Sequence record: KF055347
Direction: 5' to 3' (one strand)
DNA from: Escherichia phage JH2
Length of the DNA: 64,000 nt
A program made the position numbers and the translations under genes. Every line of letters begins with the position of its first letter. Position 1 is the stretch's first letter. The notes beneath the pieces were generated by a model. That model had not been told where the DNA came from and made no database searches. It worked only from the letters and a program-made list of their open reading frames with translations. Shown in pieces: positions 18,929 to 42,536 of this stretch.

Positions 18929-19495
18929 TTACATAAACTTATTTTTCTTACAATTGTCAAAATGGTAACGAGTCATGTTACCAGCACCACCAGTCATGCC
19001 ACAATGAGGGCAAGTTTTCTTTTCCTTTGGCTTTTTCCCAGCTTCTGACATCTTCTTCCTTGTTTCTATAGACCTTTTACATCCTTTTGATTTTGTATTA
19101 CCTATTTGGGCTTCTCCTAACCGTCTTCGATGTTCTTCAGTGAAAACCCTACCTTTATTCACAATAGATAAAGCTTTCGAGTTTAAAGCCCTTATCTTTT
19201 CATAGTCTCTGGATGATATTTTCCTGTCTAGTCCATCATGAGCTAACCTGTGCCATGCAAACCATAACTTATGGTTGTCTGGATACATCTTAACCAGCAA
19301 TTTATGAGCTATATAATGCTCTCTAGGTGTAAGTAAAGCAATATTGTCTCCACTAATTTTATCACCACCTAAGCATACTGGTATAATATGGTGTCTTTCA
19401 TAACCTTTGCCTTGACATTTGTAGTATGTGAGAGGCACACCCCTTTCAGAATGTGCCTTCTTAATAATTGCATTATAGATTAGTTCGTAATTCAT
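18929..19495 (-). CDS. free-standing HNH homing endonuclease-like protein
   Basis: 188 aa; ERHHIIPVCLGGDKISGDNIALLTPREHYIAH is an HNH motif; lies between nrdD exon 2 and nrdG. Confidence 0.65.
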   Translation of the reverse strand: MNYELIYNAIIKKAHSERGVPLTYYKCQGKGYERHHIIPVCLGGDKISGDNIALLTPREHYIAHKLLVKMYPDNHKLWFAWHRLAHDGLDRKISSRDYEKIRALNSKALSIVNKGRVFTEEHRRRLGEAQIGNTKSKGCKRSIETRKKMSEAGKKPKEKKTCPHCGMTGGAGNMTRYHFDNCKKNKFM

Positions 19496-19502
19496 TTAGA
19501 TG

Positions 19503-20450
19503 CTACATAGAAACCCTATCCTTAATTTCTGCCATCTTAGCGTCATTCATTCGAGACTGACCTTTAATTTTTGTGAATGACAAGTACCCGCACACCCTGT
19601 TAATCACAGAGATATCATGTGAATGGCAAACCTCACATTCTTCAACATCAGCCTTTGGTCTGTTACCGCAATGCTCACAGATTGCTAAGTCAAAGTTAAG
19701 TCCCTGATAAAAACCTTTCAACATCCCTCTTGTAATACAACTTTTAAGTGCTGGTAAGTTTTCTGGGTTAGCTACCCTCACATACTGGATTCTGCCACCT
19801 CTACAGATATGGAAGAATGGCTCTTCTAAGTCCTGCTTCTCAAATGGTGAGATGTTTGCTGCAACATTCATATGGAAACTGTTTGTAAAGTATTCCTTGT
19901 CAGAGACACCTTTAATAACGCCAAACATATCTCTGAACTGTTTTAACTGAGTTCCACAAAGTGATTCTGCTGGAGTGCCATATACCGCATACAAGAAGCC
20001 ATCTTCGTTCTTAAACTCTTCAGTTTTCATGTTAATGTATGCCAGAACATCGTATGCAAAACTATAGCTTCCAACTTCATGAAGTCGTTTACCTTCAGCA
20101 AGAACAGACAACTCATCAAGAGCAGTAACCCCAAAAGAGGCTGTGAAAGACTTCACAATATCCCAGCCAACCTTGTCAGTAGGTTTCTTAGTCCCTTTGT
20201 ACAGACCACCTTGTGTGAATGCAAGAGGGTTAGAACTTGCTGGCATATTAGCAATCATCTCGTAGCGTTTCTTGTGGAAGCTGCGAATCATCTCTAGGTA
20301 CTTATCAAGCTCCTTCCAGAAATCTAAACCATTCTCTTTAGAATATTGGTAAATCATTGGTAAGTTCAAAGATACAGCACCAATGTTAGCACGACCTACA
20401 TAAAACTCTTCACCATCTTCGTTATGATATGGTGATAAGAACGCTCTACA
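19503..20450 (-). CDS. nrdD: anaerobic ribonucleoside-triphosphate reductase NrdD, exon 2
   Basis: reading frame is open upstream of the annotated Met to CRAFLSP at 20450, continuing T4 NrdD ..PMG/CRSFLS; contains TNSFH and C-terminal Cys cluster. Confidence 0.75.
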   Translation of the reverse strand, partial: CRAFLSPYHNEDGEEFYVGRANIGAVSLNLPMIYQYSKENGLDFWKELDKYLEMIRSFHKKRYEMIANMPASSNPLAFTQGGLYKGTKKPTDKVGWDIVKSFTASFGVTALDELSVLAEGKRLHEVGSYSFAYDVLAYINMKTEEFKNEDGFLYAVYGTPAESLCGTQLKQFRDMFGVIKGVSDKEYFTNSFHMNVAANISPFEKQDLEEPFFHICRGGRIQYVRVANPENLPALKSCITRGMLKGFYQGLNFDLAICEHCGNRPKADVEECEVCHSHDISVINRVCGYLSFTKIKGQSRMNDAKMAEIKDRVSM

Positions 20451-21192
20451 CTTGTTGTTCAGGTAAGTTCGCTACGCTTACCCCGCTTTATTCAAGCTGC
20501 TTACTGTCACCAGTAAGTCCAGACTATATCTTCTACTTATTTCTAAGTAGCGTACCATTTCGAGTCGCTTGACCCTACACCGCTACATTCATCACGGTTA
20601 GTCGTTCGGCATTTAAATGTACTCAAAATCATGTTCAAAGTTATTATGCTCTTTTACACACTTCAATATTGAAGAGATAGTCTTGCGATTATACCCAAGT
20701 ACATTAGATAACTCTCGTATTGACTTAGCAACAATAACTTCTTTTGTCACTTTATGTGTAGCCTTCACAGCATATGAACGCTTACAAAACTTGTAGCAAC
20801 CATTCTCATAGCCTTCTTTAACATTCTCAGAATGAGTTCCCCATTCTAAGTTAGAAGCATGGTTGTTCAGTTTGTTATCATCTTTGTGTTTTACAATTGG
20901 AAGATTGTTAGGGTTAGGTACATACTTTTCAGCAACTAACCTATGGACATACATGTCACGATTCTTCCTTCCATAAAACCTTACTTTCATATAACCAGTG
21001 TTGGATTTCCACTGCGTAAGTTCTACACCATTTTTCCTAAAGACTCTTCCGTCCTCAGTAACATGATAATTTGGCATGTAATACTCCTATTTTATATAGT
21101 TTCTTACATCGTACATCATTTAGCACAGGATTGTCTACACCTGTAGAGTTTCCCTGTTTAGGCACGTTTTAGATGAGCTATAGAGCTTGTTA
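20451..21192 (-). mobile_element. group I intron in nrdD carrying an HNH homing endonuclease ORF
   Basis: exon 1 ends ..ISPMG with a U then an in-frame stop; conserved core element AAGATATAGTC on the minus strand (plus 20522-20530); intron ends in G before TGT. Confidence 0.7.
20613..21077 (-). CDS. intron-encoded HNH-family homing endonuclease
   Basis: 154 aa; HKDDNKLNNHASNLEWGTHSEN is an HNH_3-type motif; located inside the nrdD intron. Confidence 0.65.
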   Translation of the reverse strand: MPNYHVTEDGRVFRKNGVELTQWKSNTGYMKVRFYGRKNRDMYVHRLVAEKYVPNPNNLPIVKHKDDNKLNNHASNLEWGTHSENVKEGYENGCYKFCKRSYAVKATHKVTKEVIVAKSIRELSNVLGYNRKTISSILKCVKEHNNFEHDFEYI

Positions 21193-22389
21193 ACCCATCG
21201 GTGAAATAACCTTACCAGAACGCTCAAAAGCCTCTGCTACAGCACCGTGACCAGATACACTTAAGAAATCTGGATACATTGCTTTAGAGCAACACTCAAC
21301 GGCTTTACTGTACAGGTGTCCTTGACAGATATTCTCATTGTGTCTCTTCTGGTCATGAATATAAACCAGTTTAGGGAATACAACAGGCTTCTTACTCTTA
21401 CCTTGTCCATTCATGCGAACATCAAGAATGGTGTTTGCAATCATGTATTGCAGTCGGTTGTCTTCATTAGACATATCTGAGTCAAGTAAACCAAATGTTA
21501 AAGTTGTGAATGCAAAATCACCACGGCTACAAGGTACAGTATTTAGTTTCATTTCGAGTGACTGGAAGCCTTGAGTTAATTCAATCTGTAGCTGCTCCAT
21601 GACATAATTATGGTAATGTTCTTTAGGAATACCGTAAGATGCTGCTTTCTCAGCATGATAGCGTAGAGACTTCTTAGCATACGGTACAAGCACCTTATCA
21701 ATCTCTGCTAAAGTAAATCCACCAAATTGCTGTGCAGTTGCTGAAAGAACTACATCACCGATAACTTGTAAGGCTGACAGTACAGACTTCGGTTCACAGT
21801 ATTCGATGCCAGACATTTCAAAGCCGCCTTTCAGTACTTTACCAATGTCAAACAAGCAACAGTTAATACCGCCAAAAATCAGGTCTCTCAAATCGTGGAT
21901 ATAGATAAACCCTTTTTCAATGGATTCAAGTTCCTCTGGTGTTAAATGGTACTGTTTAAAGATTTCTTTAGTCAGATAACCACGAATAATTGAACCTTTT
22001 GTAGAAATTAAACTACTGTCAAAGTTAGCATTTTCACGGTCACCTAAGAAGAGTGTGTCTTTAGTCTTTTGGTAAAGCTCATCCCAATTTTGAGCAACCT
22101 CTTTACGATAATTTCTATATGTTGAGTAAGACTCATAAATCTCGTGATTTACTTCTGCCAAAGCACCCTCAACAATACTGTGAATATCGTTTACTGAGAT
22201 GAGCAAATTATTCTGCTTAGTGGACTTTACCAGAATCCTCATAAATGCTGACTCAAGAGCTTGAGTAACATCTGGTGGAAGTTCTTTATAACCAACCCTG
22301 TTAGCTGACTTTGTGACTGCTGCTAAAACTTTTTTGATATCAGGTTCTTCGAGTGAGCCATTCTTTTTAATAATCTGTACTTTGTTCAT
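21193..22389 (-). CDS. nrdD: anaerobic ribonucleoside-triphosphate reductase NrdD, exon 1
   Basis: N-terminal ATP-cone-like region; IYIHDLRDLIFGGINCCLFD aligns with T4 NrdD HVHDIDY..NCCLVD; ends ISPMG. Confidence 0.75.
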
Positions 22390-22413
22390 TATTGCCCCTT
22401 TACATGCTAAAAA

Positions 22414-22429
22414 GGTCTCCGAAGAGACC
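22414..22429 (-). terminator. terminator-like hairpin
   Basis: GGTCTC-CGAA-GAGACC followed by a T-run on the minus strand. Confidence 0.45.
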
Positions 22430-22437
22430 CTTTCATT

Positions 22438-22644
22438 TTAAATCTTTTTAGAAAACTTCACAAAGAGTTTTCTTAACTTTTCGGTGATGCCCAGATGTAT
22501 CTCTAGGATTTCAAATATAACCCATAGTAACATGACTCCAAACAACAAACCTTGTTTAAAGTCAGTAAATAGGTTAGCAATAAGCATACCAATTACAATA
22601 ACTGGTGCATCAATAACCAAACCTTCCCAAAGGCGTTTAAGCAT
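22438..22644 (-). CDS. hypothetical small membrane protein
   Basis: 68 aa, two hydrophobic helices. Confidence 0.4.
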   Translation of the reverse strand: MLKRLWEGLVIDAPVIVIGMLIANLFTDFKQGLLFGVMLLWVIFEILEIHLGITEKLRKLFVKFSKKI

Positions 22645-22879
22645 TATTCACCTCTGCCATAAAATTCTGTAGCGTCCCAACAGGTTTTAGGTTTTGTCCA
22701 TCAGTTTTCATGATGAATGGCATCTGACGAACTGGCATCTGTGCAATGTCCATTAATTCCGATAGCTCATAGTCCTGCCCTAACATTCTCACAACATGGT
22801 CAATACCACGAGCTTTTGCAAAATTCTTTGCAGTCTCACACTGATGGCATCCAGTTTTGGAATAAATTACATAAGTCAT
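22637..22879 (-). CDS. glutaredoxin-like protein (NrdH/NrdC-like redoxin)
   Basis: 80 aa; CHQC redox motif near the N-terminus; sits between RNR genes. Confidence 0.6.
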   Translation of the reverse strand: MTYVIYSKTGCHQCETAKNFAKARGIDHVVRMLGQDYELSELMDIAQMPVRQMPFIMKTDGQNLKPVGTLQNFMAEVNNA

Positions 22880-23952
22880 TAAGGAACCTCTAAAAATCCA
22901 CTATTCAAATCATCTACAACAGTATTCAATAAATACGCACCGTTCTGTTGCTCCTGATTAGCATTCTGCTCTTTATCAATTTCCATCTTCTTAATCATAT
23001 ACTTCAAAGGTGGTTCTTTAGGAGCTACAAAATCTCTGGGAATGCCAAACATATCATACAGTGGGGCAGCATTATAGTAAACCCACTCATGAAGAAGCTT
23101 TGTATTTAACCCAACTACAGCACGTCCTTCGGAGAAGATATAATACGACCATTTCTCTTCACTTTCAACTACTTCATCTAAGATTACTTTAATCTCTGGA
23201 AGAATTTGTTGGAAAGCTTTTTGCCACTCATCATCTCTTAAAGTTTCTTTTAAAACTTCAATATCAATTTTAGTGTGAAGGATTTCGTCAAGCATAATTT
23301 TCTGGACAGCTTGAGCAATACCTTGAAATTTATCTTGAGCATCAAGTGCAAAAGTACATGCAAAGGATGCCATAAAAGAAATACCTTCAAGTGCAGTCAC
23401 TGCAAATAGACCTTTTAGAATCACTTTATGGAAGTGTAAAGGGTCTTTGTCCAGAAGCGAGTCGCGGACATAACTCAGACGATAGTTTATACCTTCATCT
23501 AGTAATTCTTCAAGAACACGGTTCACAGTTTTTAATCGGTCTTGTACAGCAATGTTCTGGTTAATCTCATCTAAGATTGTTTCAGGATTTTTAATACATT
23601 GCCTTACAATCTCTGAGTAAGTAAGAGCATGTAGGTTTTCAATCTCAGACTGCTTCATAATTGCAGTTGCATAAATGTCATCAGAGATGAATGGTGCAAA
23701 GGCAAACGCTAAGCTCTTAGCAACTTGGGTATCTGCTTCCCACTGCCACTTAAGAATCTCAAGCATTACACCTGACATTGATGCTGGTACACTCTCAAAA
23801 TCAAGACGTGATTGTTCAAAAGGGAACTCATCTTCTGACCAGTCTTGTGCTTTTTGTTGTTTATATAGTTCAAAGATTTTTGGGTAGTGTTTATTAAGTG
23901 AGTCAAACGTCTTTCTCTCACCACCTAAAAAGATTGGGTGTTGGTTAATCAT
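22879..23952 (-). CDS. nrdB: ribonucleotide reductase class I small subunit
   Basis: di-iron ligand-like ExxH spacing (LDEILH); start at internal Met 23952 (MINQHPIF) has an AGGAG RBS and avoids overlap; longest ORF runs to 24012. Confidence 0.75.
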   Translation of the reverse strand: MINQHPIFLGGERKTFDSLNKHYPKIFELYKQQKAQDWSEDEFPFEQSRLDFESVPASMSGVMLEILKWQWEADTQVAKSLAFAFAPFISDDIYATAIMKQSEIENLHALTYSEIVRQCIKNPETILDEINQNIAVQDRLKTVNRVLEELLDEGINYRLSYVRDSLLDKDPLHFHKVILKGLFAVTALEGISFMASFACTFALDAQDKFQGIAQAVQKIMLDEILHTKIDIEVLKETLRDDEWQKAFQQILPEIKVILDEVVESEEKWSYYIFSEGRAVVGLNTKLLHEWVYYNAAPLYDMFGIPRDFVAPKEPPLKYMIKKMEIDKEQNANQEQQNGAYLLNTVVDDLNSGFLEVP

Positions 23953-24206
23953 AGTGTGATTTCTCCTTTCTTTATCATCTCTAAGGCTTGTTTTCTGTCT
24001 AAAACTTCCCAATTTTCTTTGTTAAACATCTCATAAGGTCTTGCGTAGATTTTACCATCTGCTGTAGAGATGTAAGAGATACCAGCAACCCATGAGTCAT
24101 CCTTTTGTTTTATCATCATATCTGTGCTACTCACATAGTACAGCGTTTTCCGAGGTTTATGGAGCAAATATATGGGCCACTCGTGATTTGCTATTAAGTC
24201 TTTCAT
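23949..24206 (-). CDS. hypothetical small protein between nrdA and nrdB
   Basis: ORF 23949..24290 trimmed to internal Met at 24206 (GGAGA RBS); stop overlaps nrdB start as ATGA. Confidence 0.35.
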   Translation of the reverse strand: MKDLIANHEWPIYLLHKPRKTLYYVSSTDMMIKQKDDSWVAGISYISTADGKIYARPYEMFNKENWEVLDRKQALEMIKKGEITL

Positions 24207-24261
24207 AGTTTCTCCAAAGTTAATTTTAGAGGGTCTTTTACGACCCTCATAGTTATTAAAA

Positions 24262-26496
24262 CTAAACACCACAACCCTCGCAATAAGCATCTTGCAGTGC
24301 AGATTTACCTACACCAATGCGACTGTTAAGGTAGTACATGGTTTTCATACCTACTGAGTTGGCATAAATCATGTACTTCAAAGCTTGAGCCAATGATACC
24401 TTCTTAGACTTTGCATAGTCAACATAGAAATCTGAAGAGATAGCTTGACCAGTGAACTTTTGAACAATTGCATAACAATCAATCAGGTCAAAGGTGTCAA
24501 TATCCCAAGCAATTTCATAGACATACTTCAACTCTTCGTAATCTGGAACAATAAACAGTACGTTACCAGTTGCAGACTTTTTAGTTAAAATAAAGTCACG
24601 AATTGGGTACAAACCATTTGTTGTATTAGTTGCCAGTGAAGAACTCTCATTAGGCATGTAAGCTTCTAATACAGAGTTACGGATTCCACCATTTTCTTTA
24701 ATACGTTGTGCTAAGTCATCCCAATCATAACGAAGTTTTGCATCATGCTTCTCATCAATCTTCCTGTTAGCTGTTTTCGGAGGAACCCAACCTTCAGGAT
24801 ACTTAGTGAACTGCATATACTCAGGTACACCACGTTCTTTAGCAAGTCTTAAAGAAGCTTCGTGTAAGTAGTAAGAGTGCATTTCAGCAAGCTCATGAAG
24901 CTTCGTCTTACCTGCTCTTGAAGAGTAGTTCACGTAGTTTTTCGCAAGGTAATGAGCCACATTTGTAAGGCCAATCCCAACAGAACGACGCTTCTGAACA
25001 TGGTTGCGCATCGACGGATACGGATAATCCATAAGGTCGATAACGGAGTCAACCATTGCAAGAGCATAATAAGCAACGTCAGCGTATTCATCTTCTGAAA
25101 TTCTCCCTGCAACCAAACTAGCTAGGAAGCAAAGGGCTACCTCACCATCCTCTTTCACAGCATCATCTCTGTAAAGGTCTGTCTCTTTCTCAAAGCCGTA
25201 CACTGGCAACACAATTTCCATACAAAGATTTGACATCTTCAAAGGTTCTTTAAATGGTGTATGTGTGTTTGCATTATTCGTGAAGAATGGATACACACGA
25301 CCTGTTGCATAACGCTGCTGGATAAACAGTTTAGCAATTTCACGAGCCTTCACCCGTCTGTGCTTAACACCTGAATGTACTGCATGACCAACTGCCATAG
25401 CAAACTCATCAGCAGATGCTGTGTAGAACATGTCATAGAGTTTTGGCGCATCCTTGTAAGAGAATAGCAACCAGTCTGTATCATATTGAACACACTGCCA
25501 GAAATAATCATTTGTACCAAATGAGTAGTCCATCTCGTTAATACGTTTTGAAGGAACCGTTGTAGGGTGCTTCAAACGTAGTAAATCTTCAATCTGCGGG
25601 TCTAGAGCAGTGTAGAAGTTGTTAGCTGAACCACCACGACTCTTCTGTTTGTTTGCCTCTACAGATGAACGTACAAGCTTGTAATAAGGTAGTTTACCCA
25701 TGTGCTCAATAGTATTTTGACGAATACCATCACCAATAGTGCGAGTCTCCATCAACATACCAATACCAGCTTGCTTTGTAGTCATATCATAAGCAACCTT
25801 TGCAGCAATACCTAGAGATTCAGCAGTATCATTTGCCTTAATCAAACAGCATGACGCATAACCTGATTTAGTAGCTCTTAAACCATTCAGATAAGGCGTA
25901 GGAGCGTTAATCTTCAGGTCAGATAGGTAAGTGTACAGCTTGATAACATCTTGCAGTCTACGGTGCTTTGGTTGCTTCTCGAAGGCTTTCATAGCCATAC
26001 CCATAAACATAAACTGCGGTGACTCAAAAAGTCTTCCCGTTTTAATATCACGGATACCATACTTGTCTCTGAACTGTTTCAGGACTGCATAGCCGTAAGA
26101 GATATCTTTTGAGTGTACGATGTAACCTTGCAGATATTCAAGTTCTTCCTGTGAATAATCCATCTTCTCCCAAAGTCCTGCTCTCTCCATATTTTTAACG
26201 AAGGTAACCAGCGTAGGAACCTTAGTAAATCCTCCAAAGGCTTCTTTGTAGATAATACCCAGAAGTAGCCGTCCAGCCATGTCTGAGTACTCTTGAGTTT
26301 GTTTATCAACACAAACATCAATCATGGCTTGGTGCATCTCTTTTGTGGTACAACCCTCATAGACACGTTTCATAGCTTCCATAGTGACTTCTGACCAGAT
26401 AATTCCACGCTTATCTGCCCATGATGCCCACTTATTCAGTCTTTCTGGGTCAAAGCTTACTACTGTACCGTTTGATTTTTTAATTGTCTTAATCAT
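24262..26496 (-). CDS. nrdA: ribonucleotide reductase class I large subunit
   Basis: 744 aa; N-terminal ATP-cone-like region; active-site SNLCMEI motif. Confidence 0.85.
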   Translation of the reverse strand: MIKTIKKSNGTVVSFDPERLNKWASWADKRGIIWSEVTMEAMKRVYEGCTTKEMHQAMIDVCVDKQTQEYSDMAGRLLLGIIYKEAFGGFTKVPTLVTFVKNMERAGLWEKMDYSQEELEYLQGYIVHSKDISYGYAVLKQFRDKYGIRDIKTGRLFESPQFMFMGMAMKAFEKQPKHRRLQDVIKLYTYLSDLKINAPTPYLNGLRATKSGYASCCLIKANDTAESLGIAAKVAYDMTTKQAGIGMLMETRTIGDGIRQNTIEHMGKLPYYKLVRSSVEANKQKSRGGSANNFYTALDPQIEDLLRLKHPTTVPSKRINEMDYSFGTNDYFWQCVQYDTDWLLFSYKDAPKLYDMFYTASADEFAMAVGHAVHSGVKHRRVKAREIAKLFIQQRYATGRVYPFFTNNANTHTPFKEPLKMSNLCMEIVLPVYGFEKETDLYRDDAVKEDGEVALCFLASLVAGRISEDEYADVAYYALAMVDSVIDLMDYPYPSMRNHVQKRRSVGIGLTNVAHYLAKNYVNYSSRAGKTKLHELAEMHSYYLHEASLRLAKERGVPEYMQFTKYPEGWVPPKTANRKIDEKHDAKLRYDWDDLAQRIKENGGIRNSVLEAYMPNESSSLATNTTNGLYPIRDFILTKKSATGNVLFIVPDYEELKYVYEIAWDIDTFDLIDCYAIVQKFTGQAISSDFYVDYAKSKKVSLAQALKYMIYANSVGMKTMYYLNSRIGVGKSALQDAYCEGCGV

Positions 26497-26518
26497 TTTT
26501 GAATCCTACAGGTGAAAA

Positions 26519-26536
26519 GAGCCTCCGAAGAGGCTC
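26519..26536 (-). terminator. terminator-like hairpin
   Basis: GAGCCTC-CGAA-GAGGCTC followed by a T-run on the minus strand. Confidence 0.45.
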
Positions 26537-26542
26537 CGTAGT

Positions 26543-26881
26543 TTAAATCTTGAAAATTTGCTCGTTCTGCCACATATCGTAAAACTTATCACTTACCTTT
26601 ATGACTGATGAAGTGTGCATACAATTCAGGGAGAACCATGATGGTGTATTATCATCCATAAGTGTTTCAAGTTTTTGTGTAACGTCCACATCCATGTCTG
26701 CAACAACGTAATTGCCTCGCATCTTGCAAACAATTCTTCCAAACAAGATTGCACTTCTGCCTCTTCGGTCATCACAGTACATAACTGTGTCACCGTGCTT
26801 AACATCTTGTCCGATACTATCAACACCTAATTTAGCACCTGAGATAATGTCATCATAAGATAGCTTTTTTGCTTTAGACAC
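26543..26881 (-). CDS. hypothetical protein
   Basis: 112-aa ORF. Confidence 0.45.
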   Translation of the reverse strand: MSKAKKLSYDDIISGAKLGVDSIGQDVKHGDTVMYCDDRRGRSAILFGRIVCKMRGNYVVADMDVDVTQKLETLMDDNTPSWFSLNCMHTSSVIKVSDKFYDMWQNEQIFKI

Positions 26882-28171: not shown

Positions 28172-28177
28172 TAGTTA

Positions 28178-28675
28178 TCAAGCACAGTTTGCTTTCATTA
28201 CCTTATGGATTCTTCTTTCAGCATCTTCATAAGTTTCTTTAGTGATAAACTTAATTGCTGCAATGTTGGCATTGTAGAAGAGTCTGAGCTTAGAGTCAAT
28301 CCTTTTTGTCATTACATCGAATTTATGTTGGAGGTTTGCTTCACCATAAACTAGACCACCTTTCGTGTAGTAGGTTTGGATAATGTAAAAGTCAAAAAAT
28401 TCTTTTCCAAAGCTCTCAATATCTTTTTTAACATACTCAGAAGAAGTCTCATAAGTCATCCAATCACTCTCCTTAGTGACTACCTTCTTCCGAGTCTTGC
28501 CAGCAACTTTTCTTTTGGTCACGCTATTAAACTGTTTCTTTCCTATATAATATTGTCCGGTTTTCTTACAGTATACTAAATAGACAAAACCAAAATGTTT
28601 AGTGGGGTCAACTTCCCCACATAAAGATACCCAATGACCATAGGTAGGACAATTGCCAAATCCTTTAATCTTCAT
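28178..28675 (-). CDS. GIY-YIG nuclease-domain protein
   Basis: 165 aa; FGFVYLVYCKKTGQYYIGKK matches the GIY-YIG motif. Confidence 0.6.
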   Translation of the reverse strand: MKIKGFGNCPTYGHWVSLCGEVDPTKHFGFVYLVYCKKTGQYYIGKKQFNSVTKRKVAGKTRKKVVTKESDWMTYETSSEYVKKDIESFGKEFFDFYIIQTYYTKGGLVYGEANLQHKFDVMTKRIDSKLRLFYNANIAAIKFITKETYEDAERRIHKVMKANCA

Positions 28676-29705: not shown

Positions 29706-29767
29706 TGTGACTCTCCATATGAAAAAGCCCCATACTAAGTACAGGGCTTTAAAGTAACTTTTAGAGA

Positions 29768-30625: not shown

Positions 30626-30697
30626 TATTTAAACCTCTATCTCAATTTATGAAGAGTACCAATTCTAATTTGTTGATACTCTATTGTCAAACATTAA

Positions 30698-30847: not shown

Positions 30848-31137
30848 GATATTCTCCGATATACTTGATATTCAAACCCATTTTCTTTAATTATAAACAG
30901 CCAACTAATATTATGCTGAGGCAGTGTAATGATGACTGTAATCGTGCTTTGGTAGAAATCTTCTTTTATCTCAACTTCTCCATTGCATTTCATGAGGAGC
31001 ATTCTATAGAACCTATCAACCTTTGTCAAACACTCTTCATGAAATTTATTTAAACTTTTTTCTTCAAAGAAGGGTGTGAACCCCTCTCTTTTATAACTGT
31101 CACTCAGTTTCAAATGGGCAGTCATCTGCATCCTCAC
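30844..31137 (-). CDS. hypothetical protein
   Basis: 97-aa ORF; 38-nt overlap with the primase-helicase 3-prime end. Confidence 0.4.
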   Translation of the reverse strand: MRMQMTAHLKLSDSYKREGFTPFFEEKSLNKFHEECLTKVDRFYRMLLMKCNGEVEIKEDFYQSTITVIITLPQHNISWLFIIKENGFEYQVYRRIS

Positions 31138-33091: not shown

Positions 33092-33278
33092 CTCTTCGTT
33101 GTAGTTCTGCCTTCAATCCGTTTTCAATCTTGTCCAGTTCATGAATTTCATCTGCAATCTCTTTCCTTCGTGATTCAACTCTCTTAAGACGTTCAATCAT
33201 TACCTCATTGGAAAGAGATGAGAGTTCCACTAAACGATGGTCAATAACTTTAAAATTATCTTTTACTCTCATCTTCAT
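33078..33278 (-). CDS. hypothetical coiled-coil protein
   Basis: 66-aa ORF. Confidence 0.4.
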   Translation of the reverse strand: MKMRVKDNFKVIDHRLVELSSLSNEVMIERLKRVESRRKEIADEIHELDKIENGLKAELQRRGANV

Positions 33279-33286
33279 CCTCTCTT

Positions 33287-34045
33287 TTAAATTTTCAGGA
33301 TAGCTCTTAGCTTGCTTTCAAGGTCTTCAAGAGTACCATTATTCTGAATAATGTCACGCGCATATTTGGTAGAAATTCCATTTTCTGAAACATGTGATGA
33401 AACCTTGTCCACATTGTCTCTTTTTACTTCAATAGTCTGGTGTGCAAATCTACTCAGCCACTCAGCTTCAGAGTCAAACCTTAAGTCACTGATTAAAACA
33501 ACACCTTCTTGATTCCTAAGTGAGCAAACGTCAAAGAAATTTGCCATTCGTTTTTCTAGGTCTTTAGCCCAGAACTTGTCACCCATAACTTTACGGATAA
33601 CTTCAGTACCCCAAATCTGTTGAATTTGCCTTGATGAGAATTTATACTTTTTACCAAATCCCAGACGTGTTAATAGAGTTGGTTTAGCAACCCTCTTAAG
33701 TTCCATGATTAATCGTCCGGTTAACTCAGACATAAGCTTAAAGTCCATATGGTAACGTTCATCTCTGAAGGTGAACTCCATAGCTTCCGTAACTTTACTC
33801 ATAAGTTCAGGGTATGATAAATCAAAAACCTGTGGGGTCTCTTTAGTTTCTCCGTAAAGGTCATTCCATGTCAAGTCAAATATCTTTGATGCAGATAGCT
33901 TAAGATTGTCTGCATAAGCCATTACTGCAACATTGTAGCCATACTCATCTTCTAAGATATTCTTAACAATAGAACATGAGGTGTCTTTTCCAGAACGTGC
34001 CTTTCCAGTAAATGCAATAATACTACTCATTCTATTTCCCTTCAT
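33287..34045 (-). CDS. deoxynucleoside monophosphate kinase-like protein
   Basis: 252 aa; P-loop IIAFTGKARSGKDT at the N-terminus. Confidence 0.6.
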   Translation of the reverse strand: MKGNRMSSIIAFTGKARSGKDTSCSIVKNILEDEYGYNVAVMAYADNLKLSASKIFDLTWNDLYGETKETPQVFDLSYPELMSKVTEAMEFTFRDERYHMDFKLMSELTGRLIMELKRVAKPTLLTRLGFGKKYKFSSRQIQQIWGTEVIRKVMGDKFWAKDLEKRMANFFDVCSLRNQEGVVLISDLRFDSEAEWLSRFAHQTIEVKRDNVDKVSSHVSENGISTKYARDIIQNNGTLEDLESKLRAILKI

Positions 34046-34091
34046 TACTAAAAAGCCCCCAACTAAGGAGGCTTGTAAGGTTTATAAAGAC

Positions 34092-34904
34092 TTAGTGCAG
34101 TTGGCCACTGGTAATCTGTGAATGCTCTTTTTCAGCCATAGCTGAGATTTGCTTCACAAAATCATCACCGAAGTTAATGCGTAGCTTCTCTTCAATGATT
34201 GAAGCGCCAATGTTTACCAAAACATCATTGATTGCTTGCATACTTACACCGCCAGTCATCTCCTCAACGAACTCAATGGTTACCCCCAACATCTGAGAAA
34301 GTTGGATTAGTGCAACGATATTCATCATTGTAGAGATAGCTGGAATCATCAGAGCAACCTTCACCTGTAGTGGTTCTACATCAGCTACAGAGTCATCTTT
34401 CACAGCTTCTTCTAAAGAGTCTTTAGTTTGCTGGATAATCTCTTGGATTCGTGGGTTTAACTCTTCTACACCCCAATCAAGTTTTTCATATCGTGACAGC
34501 TTCTCTTCCATTCGCTTCTCAAGAGCAGCCATAACAGAACTTGTTGATGAAATTATCATGGAAACTAACTCATTATCACCTAATGAGAGTAACAAGTCCT
34601 TTTCTTCAGAGTTAAGGGAGATATAGTCATTTTTCTGCATCTCATAAAAAATGAACTCTGCAAGAGCATCAACACCTACAACGATAGATGCTAAGGCAAG
34701 TGTTTTGTCAGACAGCATCATATTAACCTGTTCTGCAAAAGCACCGTTATCAGACTTATCTTTAGGCAAGTTATAGCTTGCAGGCATAAACTGCTCTGTG
34801 TAGTTGTTTCCACGAAGAATCATAGCCATGCTTTCTACGGCATTGATTAAGAAAGCTTCGTCAACACCTTTTTCTTTAAGCATCTGGTCTACAGTAGTAT
34901 TCAT
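34092..34904 (-). CDS. hypothetical protein
   Basis: 270-aa ORF. Confidence 0.5.
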   Translation of the reverse strand: MNTTVDQMLKEKGVDEAFLINAVESMAMILRGNNYTEQFMPASYNLPKDKSDNGAFAEQVNMMLSDKTLALASIVVGVDALAEFIFYEMQKNDYISLNSEEKDLLLSLGDNELVSMIISSTSSVMAALEKRMEEKLSRYEKLDWGVEELNPRIQEIIQQTKDSLEEAVKDDSVADVEPLQVKVALMIPAISTMMNIVALIQLSQMLGVTIEFVEEMTGGVSMQAINDVLVNIGASIIEEKLRINFGDDFVKQISAMAEKEHSQITSGQLH

Positions 34905-34905
34905 A

Positions 34906-35328
34906 TTATTTCTCTCTCAGTTGGTTAAGTTTCTTTCTAGAACATTTTAAGTTTTCAGATGAAGAAAAGTCAAGCGTCTTTTCAGAACGTGGATAGTAAT
35001 GTCTATCCCAAGAAGTTTCAACATCGTTAATCAGTGACGCTAGACTACACAGGTCTGTACCACTTTGCAACCTCTTTTTAAGAGAATCTAGTAAAGCAAC
35101 TGTGTCTTTAGCTTTACGTCTCGCTGTAGCAACATCTTTCATATGCTCAAATACAGAGCATTTTAAGTCATCTTCGTAGTTTTCAGACAACTCTATTTCA
35201 TGTTGTATATCAACCATTCTCCTGTGATGGTGAGCATATTCCCGTTGAGCAGCAATGTCAAGTTCTTCCAACTTCTGCAAAGCCCTAACAAAGTCAGCTA
35301 TGTCTGGGTGAACAAACATTTTCTGCAT
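34906..35328 (-). CDS. hypothetical protein
   Basis: 140-aa ORF; last gene before the divergent intergenic region. Confidence 0.5.
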   Translation of the reverse strand: MQKMFVHPDIADFVRALQKLEELDIAAQREYAHHHRRMVDIQHEIELSENYEDDLKCSVFEHMKDVATARRKAKDTVALLDSLKKRLQSGTDLCSLASLINDVETSWDRHYYPRSEKTLDFSSSENLKCSRKKLNQLREK

Positions 35329-35585
35329 GTAAGCCTCTTTTAAGTAACTATTAAGTTTTAATCTTTTATCTTAACGTATTCTATACGTTATACTTTAAAG
35401 CTTTTTAAAAGCTATTAAATAATCTTTTAAGAGTTTTAAAGTATCTGTATAGTTAAACTGTTAAGTAACCTTTTAAGTAAAAACCCACTTCGCAAAGATT
35501 AACACCTTGTCAAGTACATTGTCAACTTGCTTTTTATAATTTTTTGCAGTAATGTATGTGGTTAATGATTTTAGAGGGAGTAAAA
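35329..35585. promoter_or_regulatory. divergent AT-rich intergenic control region
   Basis: 257 bp between divergent gene blocks; repeated CTTTTAAG motifs, duplicated TTGTCAA, TATAAT hexamer; GAGGGAG RBS before the polymerase start. Confidence 0.45.
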
Positions 35586-37728
35586 ATGGAAAACGTAGAT
35601 TTTAAAAACTTACATTTAGTTGGCGATACAGAAACTGATGGTTTACTCCTTGAGTTCACTAAAGTGCACGTAATGGCTTTCGCAGACTATAAATCTGACG
35701 ATGAAGAGCCACCTGTATGGGTCTTTACAGATGAGCCTATCCTCGGCCACAAGTATACCAAGTACATTAAAGGTGGTTTGCGTGAAGGTGTCGAGTTTGC
35801 GTTAAAGGCAAAACGGCTTTGCATCCATAATGGTCTGGGGTATGACTGGTGGGTTTTCAATCACATTGCACCTGATTTGTGGAACTTTGATAATCCAAAG
35901 TGTAAACCGTGGAGTAATTTCTTTCAGGATTCTCTTATCCAGTCTCGTGTTCAGTGGATGGATAGACCAACTCCAAAGGGTTATAAAGGTGCTCATGGTT
36001 TGGCTGCATGGGGTGCTCGTGTTGGTGTACGTAAACCAGAGATTGAACATTGGGGTGTGTGGAATGCAGAAATCTTCACTCGTGTTGTAGAAGATATCCG
36101 TATTAACGCCAAAACTAAACGTGCACTGGATAATGAATATCTCAAGCTGAAGAAGTGTGGCGTAGATACTTATGAAACCTACATGCGAGCTAAAGAAACA
36201 TCTTTCTGGATGAGTCAACAAGCTATCAATGGTTGGAAAGCTGATAAAGAACTTATGGAGTTCCATGTAAAGGAACTTGACAAGTTGACTAATGAGCTTG
36301 CTTCAGAAGTTGAACCACATCTTCCTCCAACTATTAAGACCAAAGGTAAAGTCACTGGAGAAGAGTTTGCAAAAGCTTGGAATGAGTATGTTGAAGCATT
36401 CGGTCATGCAGATGGACTGAAGAGAATTACCAAGTACCCTAAGACAAAGTATCGTCAGCAGGTACGTAACGGTGAGATGCAGACATATGAAATTAAGCCA
36501 TTTGGTAAGCCAACTACAAAGATTTTTAACATTGAAAAGCGGAATTGCTATACACCAACCAACTCTGTAACTGGTGAAGAGTACAAGGAAGGTTTTGTAG
36601 CAATGAAGGATGCTCGTGCAATTTGCAATGAGTTGAATGCAAAGATTGGTAAGAAATGCAAAGACTGGAAGCCAGTAAAAACAGTTAAAACTGTGAAGTA
36701 CTATAACAGTCATGTTGTGAACCACTTTGAGCTTGAGTCAAGTCGCTACACAGGTTTGATTGATGCACCATATACACCAATTGAGTTTGAAGTTTCTCGA
36801 ATGACTCAGGTGGCTGTTGTGAAGGACTACTTGAAATCAGTTGGTTGGATTCCTGATGACTGGAACTATAAGAAAGACTCTGATGGTCGTCCTGTTAAGG
36901 TTTGTCGTTTCAAAGACAACAAAAAGATGATTACCAAACATCCTAAATGGGATGAGATGGTTGAACGGTGCGGTTTGAGTTATGTTGAACATGAAGGTGT
37001 ACAGTACATTGAGCATAACTGGTCTGTTAAGAAGTACACAGATTTGCTTGAACCTTGCTTAATCCGTACTTCACCAAAACTTACTGAATCATCTTATGAT
37101 ACGATTGAAGGTGAGCTTGGGCAGAAGATTGCAAAATACTATACCTTGATGCACAGACGCAGAACTATTGAGAACTCAAAGGATGATGAAAAAGGTTGGT
37201 TAAACCAGATTCGTCCTGATGGTCGCCTTAGTGCTGGTGCAATGGTGTTTGGTACTTCAACTGGACGTATGACACAATATGGTATTGTAAACGTACCGTC
37301 TGGCGCTGCTGTCTATGGAGCACCCATGAGGGAAGTTTGGACTTGTGAAGAGGGTACTAATATTGTTTCAGCCGACATGAATAGCGCCCAACTTGTGCTG
37401 CTGTGTAACTTTATGGGTGATAAAGATTTCACTAAAGCGGTGACAGAGGGTAAAGAAGAGGTTGAGTTTGTCAAACAAGAGGATGGTAGATACTATTGCA
37501 AACATTTTAACCAGTATCTAAACCCAGCTATTGACAAGTATTTACATTATGATTCTGAAAATGACTTATACGTGGTGTACTCAGGGACTGATGCACATAC
37601 TTTAAACAGTATCTACTTCAGCCTTAATAAAGAGGAAGACATCTTGACATGTCGAGCTACTCAGGATGCAAATCTTCTTCAAGAAATTAGTAAAGGCCGT
37701 AAGAAAGCCAAAAATGGCATTTATGCGT
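35586..37728 (+). CDS. DNA polymerase family A, exon 1 (3-prime-5-prime exonuclease plus polymerase through first half of motif B)
   Basis: Exo I motif LVGDTETDGL; ends ..RKKAKNGIY inside motif B; start moved to ATG 35586 with RBS. Confidence 0.75.
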
Positions 37729-38530
37729 CAGTGGCGCATGTAAAACGTTGTGAATTGCTGGAAGCCTAAGTCTGTAAAGATATGGTAATCAGCAGCGAAG
37801 TCTCTGTTAGGACTCCTAAAACAAAGGAGAGAGACAATGGCAGGTTACGAAGAGAGATTATGCACTGAGTGTGGTACGGAGTTTAAACCATATCAATACA
37901 ATCAGAAACGGTGCAGAAGTTGTGTATTAAAGTTTGACAGAAGGGCAGAACACAGGGTTCTTACTAAGAAATGCCCTAGTTGTGAGAAGGTGTTCATGCC
38001 GAGAACAGCAAGGCAAGTTTATTGTTCGTCACATTGCGGTGAGAAAGGTAGAGTTAAGAATTACTACCTAAGAACATATGGATTGGAAAGAGAAGAGGTT
38101 GAGTCTCTACTCCGTGACTGTGATTACAAATGTCAAATTTGTGGCGGCGAAGGTTTTATCATGAATGGTTCACGACACAAGGCTAAACTTGTTGTTGACC
38201 ATGACCATAAAACCGGAAAGGTAAGAGGTATGTTATGCCACAATTGCAACAGAGCTTTGGGGTTGCTTGCAGATAGTGTTGATAACATGCAAAGAGCGAT
38301 TGACTATCTAAGCAAATGATATAACTATAGAGATTCCTAACAGAGAAACGTTCAGAGACTATCGAAAAGCATACTTAACGTATGAACTGAGTAGAGTAGG
38401 GTGGTAAGCTAATGACCATCCCCAAGTGCAACGGTAGCATCACTGCTACGTGATATAGTCCGACACTCCGTAGAAATGCGGAGAAGTTCATAAGAGAACT
38501 GGTACACCTTGCGAGTGTATTGACCAGATG
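37729..38530 (+). mobile_element. group I intron in the DNA polymerase gene carrying an EndoVII-type HNH ORF
   Basis: polymerase motif B split (..KNGIY / ..LFGAGDEKFAK); exon 1 ends in U at 37728; intron ends in G at 38530; conserved GATATAGTCC at 38452-38461; boundaries inferred. Confidence 0.65.
37837..38319 (+). CDS. intron-encoded HNH endonuclease, endonuclease VII-like
   Basis: 160 aa; VVDHDHKTGKVRGMLCHNCNRALG typical of EndoVII-type HNH; several CxxC pairs; good RBS. Confidence 0.65.
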   Translation: MAGYEERLCTECGTEFKPYQYNQKRCRSCVLKFDRRAEHRVLTKKCPSCEKVFMPRTARQVYCSSHCGEKGRVKNYYLRTYGLEREEVESLLRDCDYKCQICGGEGFIMNGSRHKAKLVVDHDHKTGKVRGMLCHNCNRALGLLADSVDNMQRAIDYLSK

Positions 38531-42535: not shown

Positions 42536-42536
42536 T

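What the first reader, a model, noticed from the sequence alone, without database searches (positions are those of the whole stretch)
18929..38319. High density and diversity of homing-endonuclease-like genes
Within about 20 kb there are a free-standing HNH gene (18929..19495), an intron-borne HNH_3-type gene (20613..21077), a GIY-YIG-domain gene (28178..28675) and an intron-borne EndoVII-type HNH gene (37837..38319), plus a weak HNH-like ORF at 15987..16520. All sit in or beside nucleotide-metabolism and replication genes, the usual homing targets.
Basis: partly seen in the sequence, partly recalled or inferred. Interest (0 to 1): 0.5.

Follow-up and report, generated by a model that had tools for sequence, protein, structure and literature searches.

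The report
Homing endonucleases and introns, Felix-O1-like phage
This stretch of a Felix-O1-like phage genome carries three real selfish homing-endonuclease genes, two of them inside self-splicing group I introns, plus two nuclease-like genes that are fixed core genes rather than mobile elements; the pattern is well known in large lytic phages.

Summary
The window is a Felixounavirus genome segment (about 95% identical to Salmonella phage Sl26). All five ORFs exist at the stated coordinates.

Three are genuine, sporadically distributed homing endonuclease genes:
- A Mob-type HNH-NUMOD3 gene lies in a 568-bp cassette inserted exactly at the nrdD stop codon.
- An I-HmuI-like HNH_3 gene lies in a 742-nt group I intron of nrdD (21192..20451, minus strand).
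- An endonuclease-VII-type HNH gene lies in an 802-nt group I intron of the family-A DNA polymerase gene (37729..38530).

Both introns are absent, ORF-less or ORF-containing in close relatives. The ORF-less forms pass Rfam's group I threshold. In pairs where it could be computed (dS not saturated), HEG dN/dS is 0.03-0.06.

- The GIY-YIG gene occurs in about 296 of about 299 Ounavirinae records. In every locus examined it overlaps the end of the exonuclease gene, and it has no DNA-binding domain.
- ORF 15987 has only a motif-level HNH signature and is a core gene, deleted in a few phages.

These genes are already annotated in dozens of GenBank records, and homing endonucleases in Felix-O1-like phages are published. 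The modest additions are exact intron boundaries and the reclassification of the GIY-YIG gene. Interest is low.

The parts
15987..16520 (-). ORF 15987 (177 aa). A conserved Ounavirinae protein with a motif-level HNH (beta-beta-alpha) signature. It is not a sporadic HEG.
18885..18920 (-). Terminator-like hairpin that follows nrdD directly in HEG-less relatives and follows the Mob-type HEG here.
   Evidence: 16-pair stem followed by a T run. The same sequence directly follows the nrdD stop codon in allfine and ph2-2.
18929..19495 (-). Free-standing Mob-type HNH-NUMOD3 homing endonuclease gene (188 aa). The inserted cassette is about 18936-19503 (568 bp).
   Evidence: Domain evidence. The cassette is absent from allfine, ph2-2, I14.1, BPS17L1 and Mordin. 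The junction reads ...TCTATGTA(A/G) | cassette ending ...TTTATGTAA | AACTTGACAAGG. Present in 47 records by megablast. It is 28-39% identical to T4 MobC, MobD and MobE. dN/dS is 0.03 against Sl26.
19503..20450 (-). nrdD exon 2. It begins with the codons for CRAFLSPYH and includes the stop codon.
20451..21192 (-). Group I intron in nrdD (742 nt, T4-td-like). The 5' splice site follows U21193 and the intron ends with G20451.
   Evidence: Rfam Intron_gpI scores 35.7 bits (E 3e-7) plus 17.7 bits in the window. The 316-nt ORF-less homologue in ph2-2 has a core 96-99% identical and scores 52.1 bits, above the gathering score of 50. The intron is precisely absent from I14.1, which restores ...SPMG|CRAFL. 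A possible P1 pairs AUGGGU (21198-21193) with GCUCAU (21178-21173), with U.G at the splice site. The 3' half is 71% identical to the T4 td intron, E 1e-11. The core is present in 92 records.
20613..21077 (-). Intron-encoded I-HmuI-like HNH_3 homing endonuclease gene (154 aa), lying in the P6 region of the nrdD intron.
   Evidence: Domain evidence. A Shine-Dalgarno AGGAG lies 8 nt upstream. Present in 50 records. Segment 20646-21068 is missing in ph2-2, which keeps a fused start/stop remnant of the ORF. dN/dS is 0.05-0.06.
21193..22389 (-). nrdD exon 1 (ATP-cone plus the N-terminal half of NrdD), ending ...ISPMG.
28178..28675 (-). GIY-YIG-domain-only protein (165 aa). It overlaps the upstream 5'-3' exonuclease gene, suggesting translational coupling, and is a core gene of the Ounavirinae, not a mobile HEG.
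35556..37728 (+). Family-A DNA polymerase exon 1, ending ...KAKNGIYA plus the first base of a Leu codon.
37729..38530 (+). [quoted passage not shown]
   Evidence: Rfam Intron_gpI scores 24.6 bits (E 6e-4) for P4-P6 in the window. The 268-nt ORF-less homologue in BPS17L1 has a core 96-97% identical and scores 63.8 bits, above the gathering score of 50. P1 pairs AUGCGU (37723-37728) with GCGCAU (37734-37739), with U.G at the splice site, and the last intron base is G. The intron is precisely absent from I14.1, Mordin and phiEa21-4 and from ph2-2. The core is present in about 121 records.
37837..38319 (+). Intron-encoded endonuclease-VII-type HNH homing endonuclease gene (160 aa) with N-terminal Cys-rich, zinc-ribbon-like motifs. 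It sits in the P6 loop, which is closed by an 11-bp stem (37801-37811 with 38336-38346).
   Evidence: Domain evidence. The stem was checked. The window-type ORF is in 19 records. A second lineage, 82% identical in protein and 73% in DNA, occupies the same intron in allfine, Tribble and FM4b. dN/dS is 0.03 against Sl26.
38531..39087 (+). DNA polymerase exon 2, reading (L)LFGAGDEKFAKT...

Best explanation
The region is the nucleotide-metabolism and replication module of a Felixounavirus. It has been colonised by three selfish homing elements, and it also contains two core genes with nuclease folds.

1. nrdD intron. A td-like group I intron (21192..20451) splits nrdD between Gly399 and the Cys of the conserved SPMG|CR motif. 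It carries an I-HmuI-like HNH_3 endonuclease gene in its P6 region.

2. DNA polymerase intron. A group I intron (37729..38530) splits the PolA gene inside the ...KNGIYA|LLFGAG... segment. I recall that segment as the O-helix / motif B region. The intron carries an endonuclease-VII-type HNH gene in its P6 loop.

3. Mob-type cassette. A free-standing HNH-NUMOD3 gene sits in a 568-bp cassette inserted exactly at the nrdD stop codon, upstream of the nrdD terminator. It is therefore probably co-transcribed with nrdD.

Inferred mechanism (not shown here). During mixed infection each endonuclease cuts or nicks the empty allele of a co-infecting relative. Recombinational repair then copies the HEG, with its intron and nearby exon bases, into the break. 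RNA self-splicing restores intact NrdD and polymerase mRNAs, so the host genes remain functional.

The GIY-YIG-only protein (28178-28675) and ORF 15987 are not part of this mobile set. They are vertically inherited core genes. The GIY-YIG protein is most likely a non-homing nuclease that works with, or is co-expressed with, the adjacent 5'-3' exonuclease. That function is inferred only.
For: Identity of the window: megablast at 93-96% to many Felixounavirus genomes.

Group I introns:
- Sub-threshold covariance-model hits lie on the coding strand in both gaps.
- ORF-less homologues with near-identical cores exceed Rfam's gathering score, at 52.1 and 63.8 bits against 50.
- Both show a P1 with U.G at the 5' splice site and a terminal G.
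- Intron-less alleles in close relatives restore uninterrupted conserved protein sequence at exactly these points.
- The nrdD intron is similar to the T4 td intron.

Sporadic distribution: the HEGs are in 47, 50 and 19 or more records, and the intron cores in 92 and about 121. The flanking genes are in about 230-300 records.

All three life-cycle states (empty, ORF-less, ORF-containing) occur for both introns.

Purifying selection on the HEGs: dN/dS is 0.03-0.06.

Flanking exon bases differ. Intron-containing pol alleles all read GCG|TTATTG, while intron-less alleles read GCACTGCTG or similar synonymous variants.

Mob cassette boundaries and terminator. Homology to T4 MobC, MobD and MobE, and the same nrdD-mob-nrdG layout as T4.

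Core status of the GIY-YIG gene and ORF 15987.
Against: No activity was measured: neither splicing nor cleavage.

In the window itself both introns score below Rfam's gathering threshold, because the ORF interrupts the model. The above-threshold scores come from close ORF-less relatives.

Covariation cannot be used, because the intron cores are 93-100% identical.

An intact, conserved HEG does not prove that homing is still occurring.

The GIY-YIG protein keeps its catalytic-type residues and belongs by sequence to the SegE family. A homing past, or residual site-specific activity, is therefore not excluded.
Confidence: 0.88

Rival explanations
1. Genes in pieces. nrdD and the DNA polymerase gene are each split into two separately translated polypeptides by insertion of a free-standing HEG. 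This is how Aeromonas phage Aeh1 nrdA/mobE works, and it is how phage Mushroom was described in its genome announcement. No RNA splicing is involved.
For: [quoted passage not shown] Most GenBank records annotate two CDSs. Rfam reports nothing in the window at gathering threshold.
Against: The ORF-less versions of both intervening sequences pass Rfam's group I threshold. Both have a P1 with U.G and a terminal G.

The conserved coding sequence of each second half begins directly at the 3' splice site, with no start codon. The first in-frame start for nrdD exon 2 is a TTG 27 codons downstream of the CRAFL motif.

The polymerase is also split in phages whose 268-nt insert has no ORF at all. HEG insertion cannot explain that.
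Confidence: 0.04
2. All five ORFs, including the GIY-YIG gene and ORF 15987, are active homing endonucleases. The last two have simply swept to fixation in the subfamily.
For: The GIY-YIG domain belongs to the SegE family at 7.5e-28 and keeps catalytic-type residues. Several GenBank records call it a 'GIY-YIG homing endonuclease'. ORF 15987 has an HNH-like motif and is missing from BPS17L1.
Against: The GIY-YIG gene is in about 296 of about 299 Ounavirinae records. It sits at the same position overlapping the exonuclease stop codon in three genera. It diverges in step with its neighbour: 63% against 54% protein identity to phiEa21-4. Only 27 residues follow the catalytic domain, so there is no room for a DNA-binding domain. 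Homologues of similar length and 29-38% identity are found in several hundred cyanophage records.

A fixed HEG with no empty targets is expected to decay. This gene is instead under strong constraint.

ORF 15987 is conserved to 45% identity in Kolesnikvirus at a syntenic position.
Confidence: 0.08

Closest known systems
Phage T4 nrdD (sunY) group I intron with I-TevII, and the adjacent free-standing mobC
   Same: The gene layout is the same: nrdD interrupted by a group I intron that encodes an endonuclease, then a free-standing HNH 'mob' gene immediately downstream, then nrdG. The window's Mob-type protein is 28.6% identical to T4 MobC over its full length, E 1.5e-12.
   Different: The intron site differs. 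The T4 intron falls at about residue 280 of the window's NrdD numbering; the window's intron falls after residue 399. The T4 intron ORF is GIY-YIG (I-TevII), whereas here it is an I-HmuI-like HNH_3. The ribozyme resembles the T4 td intron rather than the T4 nrdD intron.
Phage T4 td group I intron (subgroup IA2 in the literature)
   Same: The 3' half of the nrdD intron core is 71% identical to the td intron, E 1e-11, with the hit lying under the td/I-TevI annotation. By my recollection of td, which I did not test, both begin with an in-frame UAA and both carry the ORF in the P6 region.
   Different: The host gene differs (nrdD rather than td) and so does the endonuclease family (HNH_3 rather than GIY-YIG I-TevI).
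Group I introns with HNH endonucleases in phage family-A DNA polymerase genes (SPO1 I-HmuI, SP82 I-HmuII, Bastille I-BasI, Pf-WMP3 I-PfoP3I, PhiI/W31 I-TslI, phiL7)
   Same: A self-splicing intron carrying an HNH-family ORF in a highly conserved part of a PolA-type polymerase gene. The literature reports at least three such insertion sites, one in the fingers subdomain (PMC3428280).
   Different: The ORF here is of the endonuclease VII (PF02945) type with Cys-rich, zinc-ribbon-like motifs, not the I-HmuI type. Whether the insertion site coincides with any of the published sites was not tested.
T4 MobE / MobD free-standing HNH endonucleases and MobE-driven trans-homing of the nrdB intron
   Same: An HNH motif plus NUMOD3, an intergenic position next to a ribonucleotide reductase gene, and sporadic distribution. 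An intron lies about 1 kb away, as in the T4 nrdA-mobE-nrdB(intron) arrangement (PMC2790892, listed).
   Different: Protein identity is only 32-39%. The target gene is unknown. The Mob cassette and the nrdD intron are not strictly linked: allfine and BPS17L1 have the intron and its HEG but no Mob gene.
T4 SegE and the I-TevI GIY-YIG catalytic domain
   Different: There is no C-terminal DNA-binding domain. The gene is fixed and syntenic across a whole subfamily, and it overlaps the exonuclease gene.

Membership tests
Group I intron (Rfam RF00028) | Covariance-model score at or above the gathering score (50 bits) | tested here: met
   The window copies score 35.7 bits (nrdD) and 24.6 bits (pol), because the ORF interrupts the model. 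The ORF-less homologues, whose cores are 96-99% identical, score 52.1 and 63.8 bits.
Group I intron (Rfam RF00028) | P1 helix pairing the 5' exon end with an internal guide sequence, with U.G at the splice site, and a terminal G at the 3' end | tested here: met
   pol: AUGCGU (37723-37728) pairs with GCGCAU (37734-37739), and the intron ends ...CCAGAUG. nrdD: AUGGGU pairs with GCUCAU, and the intron ends ...AACAAG.
Group I intron (Rfam RF00028) | Precise removal restores an uninterrupted conserved reading frame, and intron-less alleles exist | tested here: met
   Insert length is 0 in I14.1 (both genes) and in Mordin and phiEa21-4 (pol). The junctions read SPMG|CRAFL and GIYA|LLFGAG.
Group I intron (Rfam RF00028) | Self-splicing of the RNA | not testable with these tools
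   Needs in vitro transcription and splicing, or RT-PCR from infected cells.
Intron-encoded HNH homing endonuclease (I-HmuI-like, Pfam HNH_3) | HNH_3 domain above the Pfam threshold, and homology to a characterised member | tested here: met
   40.2 bits against a cut-off of 24.8. I-HmuI (1U3E) matches at E 1.6e-9 over residues 3-114.
Intron-encoded HNH homing endonuclease (I-HmuI-like, Pfam HNH_3) | Sporadic presence/absence at a fixed site among close relatives | tested here: met
   The ORF is in 50 records and the intron core in 92, out of about 257 Ounavirinae nrdD genes at 80% identity or more.
Intron-encoded HNH homing endonuclease (I-HmuI-like, Pfam HNH_3) | Site-specific nicking or cleavage of the intron-less allele | not testable with these tools
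   Requires a biochemical assay.
Endonuclease VII-type (PF02945) HNH homing endonuclease | Endonuclease_7 domain above threshold with the DHDH...C..CN motif and zinc-binding cysteines; intron-encoded and sporadic | tested here: met
   70.5 bits against a cut-off of 23.6. The motif reads CQICGG...VVDHDHKTGKVRGMLCHNCN. Hpy99I and T4 endonuclease VII match. The window-type ORF is in 19 records, a second lineage occupies the same intron in other phages, and the intron core is in about 121 records.
Mob-type free-standing HNH homing endonuclease (T4 MobC/MobD/MobE) | HNH catalytic motif plus NUMOD3 DNA-binding module, and homology to T4 Mob proteins | tested here: met
   NUMOD3 at 25.3 bits against a cut-off of 20.4. 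The HNH motif aligns with colicin E9 and pyocin AP41. T4 MobE, MobD and MobC are 32%, 39% and 29% identical.
Mob-type free-standing HNH homing endonuclease (T4 MobC/MobD/MobE) | Intergenic cassette with clean empty sites in relatives | tested here: met
   The 568-bp cassette lies between the nrdD stop codon and its terminator. Empty sites occur in allfine and ph2-2, with the locus also lacking the gene in I14.1, BPS17L1 and Mordin.
GIY-YIG homing endonuclease (Seg / I-TevI type) | GIY-YIG catalytic domain | tested here: met
GIY-YIG homing endonuclease (Seg / I-TevI type) | A separate sequence-specific DNA-binding domain attached to the catalytic domain | tested here: not met
   The domain covers residues 21-138 of 165. 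No further Pfam domain was found. All homologues are 132-171 aa.
GIY-YIG homing endonuclease (Seg / I-TevI type) | Sporadic distribution and variable genomic position | tested here: not met
   Found in 296 records at 60% identity or more, against about 299 for the polymerase. It overlaps the exonuclease gene in the same way in Felixounavirus, Mooglevirus and Kolesnikvirus.
HNH endonuclease (for ORF 15987) | Significant match to an HNH profile or to the beta-beta-alpha-Me fold | tested here: inconclusive
Genes-in-pieces (Aeh1 nrdA/mobE type) | The second half has its own start codon and ribosome-binding site at the beginning of the conserved sequence | tested here: not met
   Conserved coding sequence starts at the 3' splice site with no start codon. 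The first in-frame start in nrdD exon 2 is a TTG at 20369, 27 codons into the conserved sequence.

The most novel reading that the evidence does not exclude
The small GIY-YIG-only protein is encoded by a gene that overlaps, and may be translationally coupled to, the 5'-3' exonuclease gene. It could be a domesticated derivative of a Seg-type homing endonuclease that became a core nuclease. Possible roles are host-DNA breakdown for nucleotide salvage, or a replication/recombination function. The family would then be shared by all Ounavirinae and, distantly, by hundreds of cyanomyoviruses, where it is mis-annotated as 'NAD synthetase'.

A second, weaker reading concerns the pol-intron ribozyme core. 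It is an island of 93-100% identity inside exon and HEG sequence that is only 65-80% identical. That pattern could mean the core spreads independently of its own ORF, through trans-homing or collaborative homing driven by neighbouring free-standing HNH genes.
Probability: 0.35. Interest if true: 0.45.

Novelty: already known. Interest (0 to 1): 0.2.

Why it matters
Practical value is mainly for annotation. In Felixounavirus records, nrdD and the DNA polymerase gene should be annotated as joined exons across group I introns, not as two genes or as 'disrupted by a free-standing HEG'. The exact splice junctions are given here. The widespread labels 'GIY-YIG homing endonuclease' and 'NAD synthetase' for the conserved 165-aa protein are probably both wrong.

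For phage-therapy genomics of Felix-O1-like phages, the three HEG sites and their co-converted flanks are expected hot spots of mosaicism. They should be excluded from phylogenies. Nothing here opens a long-standing question.

Tried and rejected
- Rfam at gathering threshold on the whole window found nothing. The introns appear only with E-value thresholds or in ORF-less relatives.
- NCBIfam gave no hit for any of the six proteins tested.
- A PDB sequence search for the GIY-YIG protein found nothing meaningful.
- A profile search of ORF 15987 against the PDB returned only a repeat-inflated match of residues 11-56 to protein A domains. I judged this to be chance.
- hhalign of the ORF 15987 family against the Mob-type HNH was not significant.
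- The word-indexed homologue searches found only 13 and 20 close relatives, all on contigs of Ounavirinae size. They added little beyond the alignments.
- ORF 16572-16892 is labelled 'HNH endonuclease' in some RefSeq relatives. It is DUF7390 and I saw no HNH motif in its sequence, so I did not count it.
- Covariation analysis of the introns was not attempted, because the cores are 93-100% identical.
- Collaborative homing by the HNH gene downstream of pol was considered. It is not supported, because ph2-2 carries that HNH together with an intron-less pol gene.
- My automated junction finder mis-placed a few distant loci (negative or very large 'insert lengths'). Those rows were ignored.

Full report
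**What the window is.** The region 18000-39000 matches 386 phage records. The best are Felixounavirus genomes at 93-96% identity, for example Salmonella phage Sl26 at 94.9% over 98% of the query. The annotated gene order in Sl26 and allfine is nadV, prs, small ORFs, nrdG, nrdD, grx, nrdB, nrdA, a MazG-like gene, the GIY-YIG gene, a 5'-3' exonuclease, primase/helicase, dNMP kinase and then a family-A DNA polymerase on the other strand. This is the nucleotide-metabolism and replication module of a Felix-O1-like myovirus.

**Check of the observation.** All five ORFs exist as stated.
- 18929-19495(-): NUMOD3 above threshold, plus a weak colicin-type HNH match. The HNH motif ERHHIIPVCLGGDKISGDNIALLTPREHYIAHK aligns with the pyocin AP41 and colicin E9 DNase motifs.
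- 20613-21077(-): HNH_3 above threshold.
- 28178-28675(-): SegE_GIY-YIG above threshold.
- 37837-38319(+): Endonuclease_7 above threshold.
- 15987-16520(-): no significant family match. There is only a weak PHROG HNH hit.

PHROGs agrees on four of the five but labels the GIY-YIG family 'NAD synthetase'.

**The nrdD split is a group I intron.** The NrdD N-terminal half (21190-22389) and C-terminal half (19503-20369 as an ORF) are separated by about 820 nt.

A permissive Rfam scan finds Intron_gpI on the coding strand. It scores 35.7 bits (E 3e-7) over 20500-20785 and 17.7 bits over the P4-P6 part at 21083-21157.

Phage I14.1 has an uninterrupted nrdD. Aligning it to the window places the insertion at 21192..20451, which is 742 nt.
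- Exon 1 ends ...CCG AUG GGU.
- The intron begins with an in-frame UAA and ends ...AACAAG.
- Exon 2 begins UGU AGA GCG UUC.
- The spliced protein therefore reads ...ISPMG|CRAFLSPYH....
- AUGGGU at the exon end can pair with GCUCAU 15 nt into the intron, giving U.G at the splice site.

Phage ph2-2 carries a 316-nt ORF-less version. Its core is 96-99% identical to the window's and it scores 52.1 bits, above Rfam's gathering score of 50. It retains ATGCCAAAT...GGATACATCTAA, a fusion of the HEG start and stop. It therefore looks like a deletion derivative of an ORF-containing intron.

The 3' half of the core is 71% identical to the T4 td intron, E 1e-11, with hits lying under td/I-TevI annotations.

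The T4 nrdD intron lies elsewhere, about 119 codons upstream in the window's numbering.

**The polymerase split is a group I intron.** Exon 1 as an ORF runs to a stop codon at 37769. Exon 2 homology starts near 38531.

Rfam finds the P4-P6 part at 37756-37846, scoring 24.6 bits with E 6e-4.

Intron-less polymerases in I14.1, ph2-2, Mordin and phiEa21-4 read ...KNGIYALLFGAGDEKF.... The only splice that reproduces this and obeys group I rules is the following:
- Exon 1 ends ...UAU GCG U at 37728.
- The intron is 37729-38530, which is 802 nt.
- Exon 2 begins UA UUG UUC GGG.

Other structural features fit:
- P1 pairs AUGCGU (37723-37728) with GCGCAU (37734-37739), with U.G at the splice site.
- The last intron base is G.
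- The ORF sits in the P6 loop, which is closed by an 11-bp stem: TCTCTGTTAGG at 37801-37811 with CCTAACAGAGA at 38336-38346.

BPS17L1 has a 268-nt ORF-less form in which P6 is a simple hairpin. It scores 63.8 bits in Rfam.

All intron-containing alleles share GCG U|UA UUG at the junction. Intron-less alleles use other synonymous codons: GCA CUG CUG, GCC CUG UUA and GCC UUG UUG. That is what P1 and P10 pairing and co-conversion would predict.

**The free-standing HNH.** HEG-less relatives read ...GTTTCTATGTAA|AACTTGACAAGGTGG.... The nrdD stop codon is followed directly by a 16-bp terminator-like hairpin. The window and Sl26 instead read ...TCTATGTAG CATCTAA ATG...(HEG)...TTTATGTAA|AACTTGACAAGG.

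The 568-bp cassette (about 18936-19503) is therefore inserted exactly at the nrdD stop codon and upstream of the nrdD terminator.

The protein is 32-39% identical to T4 MobE and MobD and 28.6% identical to T4 MobC. Relatives occur in more than 800 phage records, in many different contexts and often in several copies per genome. T4 has the same layout: nrdD (intron, I-TevII), then mobC, then nrdG.

**Presence/absence.** Megablast finds the elements in the following numbers of records.

| Element | Records |
|---|---|
| Mob-type gene | 47 |
| nrdD-intron ORF | 50 |
| Window-type pol-intron ORF | 19 |
| nrdD intron core | 92 |
| pol intron core | about 121 (94 at 90% or more, 27 at 80-90%) |

For comparison, NrdD at 80% protein identity or more is in 257 records, and the polymerase junction at 60% or more is in about 299.

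Among the fetched genomes every combination occurs:

| Phage | Mob cassette | nrdD | pol |
|---|---|---|---|
| I14.1 | absent | no intron | no intron |
| ph2-2 | absent | ORF-less intron | no intron |
| allfine | absent | intron + ORF | intron + second-lineage ORF |
| BPS17L1 | absent | intron + ORF | ORF-less intron |
| Sl26 and the window | present | intron + ORF | intron + window-type ORF |

.

A second pol-intron ORF lineage occupies the same intron in allfine, Tribble and FM4b. It is 82% identical in protein and 73% in DNA.

All three HEGs have intact reading frames. dN/dS is 0.03-0.06 in the comparisons where dS is not saturated. That fits functional proteins.

**The two genes that are not mobile.**

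The GIY-YIG gene:
- It is in 227 records by megablast and in 296 at 60% protein identity or more.
- In Felixounavirus, in Mooglevirus (Mordin, 86.5% identity) and in Kolesnikvirus (phiEa21-4, 63%) it lies in the same place, directly after the exonuclease gene. In the window its start overlaps the exonuclease stop by 11 nt, and GGGAG lies upstream.
- It is at least as conserved as the exonuclease itself, which is 54% identical in phiEa21-4.
- The GIY-YIG domain spans residues 21-138 of 165. No DNA-binding domain follows it.
- All homologues are 132-171 aa, and G28, Y31, Y42, G44, E111 and N134 are invariant.
- Homologues at 29-38% identity occur in several hundred cyanomyovirus records, mostly labelled 'NAD synthetase'.

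My conclusion is that this is a core GIY-YIG nuclease and not a currently mobile HEG. Its role, perhaps acting with the exonuclease, is inference only.

ORF 15987:
- It is in 202 records by megablast, is 75% identical in Mordin and 45% in phiEa21-4 at a syntenic position, and is deleted in BPS17L1.
- Its homologues share an invariant FTLGH-x6-GG-x-HH-xx-NW-x-IQ-x3-DNQ segment. The AF2 model places this in a strand-strand-helix unit.
- No profile or fold search reached significance.

I classify it as an HNH-motif core protein, with the fold not established.

**Comparison with the literature.**
- The Felix O1 genome paper reported six HNH genes and no introns (PMC3185647).
- Later notes recorded split nrdD and split polymerase genes in relatives. 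They described them as split genes or as disruption by a free-standing HEG (PMC4392139, PMC4837284).
- The BASEL collection paper states that intron boundaries were annotated for its phages. Under the HEG match, the JohannRWettstein record lists the nrdD large-subunit feature as well as the HEG.
- Group I introns with HNH genes in phage PolA genes, and Mob-type genes beside RNR genes, are textbook cases (PMC3428280; PMC2988022 and PMC2790892, listed).

The finding is therefore real but ordinary. The additions here are exact boundaries, formal group I assignment through the ORF-less homologues, and removal of two of the five genes from the mobile set.

**An observation left open.** Between the window and allfine, Tribble or FM4b, the pol ribozyme core is 90-100% identical. 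The flanking exons and the ORF are only 52-90% identical per 40-nt bin, mostly 65-80%. Strong structural constraint on the RNA is the simplest explanation. ORF-independent spread of the core is not excluded.

Noticed in passing
L003 25087-25578; L004 2663-3196; L007 24001-24513; L009 1-375; L005 28208-28684: Relatives carry HNH genes at sites that are empty in the window. One lies between prs and nadV (I14.1). One lies immediately downstream of the polymerase gene (ph2-2, BPS17L1, FM4b). One lies upstream of the polymerase gene (phiEa21-4). The module therefore has more HEG landing sites than the window shows.
   Followed up: partly
window 37430-39087, compared with L002, L003, L004, L007, L008, L009: The 3' part of the polymerase gene is only 65-84% identical to most Felixounaviruses, while the backbone is about 93-95% identical. 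The intron's ribozyme core inside it is 93-100% identical, so it forms an island of conservation in a mosaic region.
   Followed up: partly
L004 20295-20610: The ORF-less nrdD intron of phage ph2-2 keeps the first 9 nt and about the last 30 nt of the endonuclease ORF fused in frame (ATGCCAAAT...TACATCTAA). This is evidence of ORF loss from an ORF-containing intron.
   Followed up: yes
window 16572-16892 (-): This 106-aa ORF is annotated 'HNH endonuclease' in RefSeq relatives (BPS17L1, allfine). It matches only DUF7390, and I saw no HNH motif in its sequence. The annotation is probably a propagated error.
   Followed up: yes
window 28178-28675 (-): The GIY-YIG family is widely annotated 'NAD synthetase' (phrog_447; RefSeq phiEa21-4 gp98). 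It has 29-38% identical homologues in several hundred Synechococcus and Prochlorococcus myovirus records. The name has no support from any domain search here.
   Followed up: partly
window 15987-16520 (-), residues 11-56: The N-terminal segment LSFEERQEFIDSHQYDPSNSNHM resembles the repeated B-domain motif of staphylococcal protein A ([25 protein letters not shown]). The E-value is inflated by the repeats, and the match is probably chance.
   Followed up: no
L010 (T4 41500-46500): T4 has the same local layout as the window: nrdD with a group I intron (I-TevII), then the free-standing HNH gene mobC, then nrdG. The intron sites are about 119 codons apart, so the introns were acquired independently.
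   Followed up: yes
L003 (PP892526.1): The GenBank record of phage vB_EcoM_I14.1 carries a Tequintavirus (Demerecviridae) taxonomy line. Its sequence is collinear with and 92-96% identical to Felixounavirus genomes.
   Followed up: no
window 17015-17418, 18483-18874, 39091-39569, 39956-40215, 40424-40576, 4216-4515: These short segments (150-400 bp, small ORFs) are replaced or absent in one or more close relatives. They are too small to be HEGs, and their function is unknown.
   Followed up: no
window 1-64000: There is no Rfam hit of any kind at gathering threshold in the whole 64-kb window, so no tRNA genes were detected in this part of the genome. Both group I introns were missed at that threshold because their ORFs interrupt the model.
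   Followed up: yes
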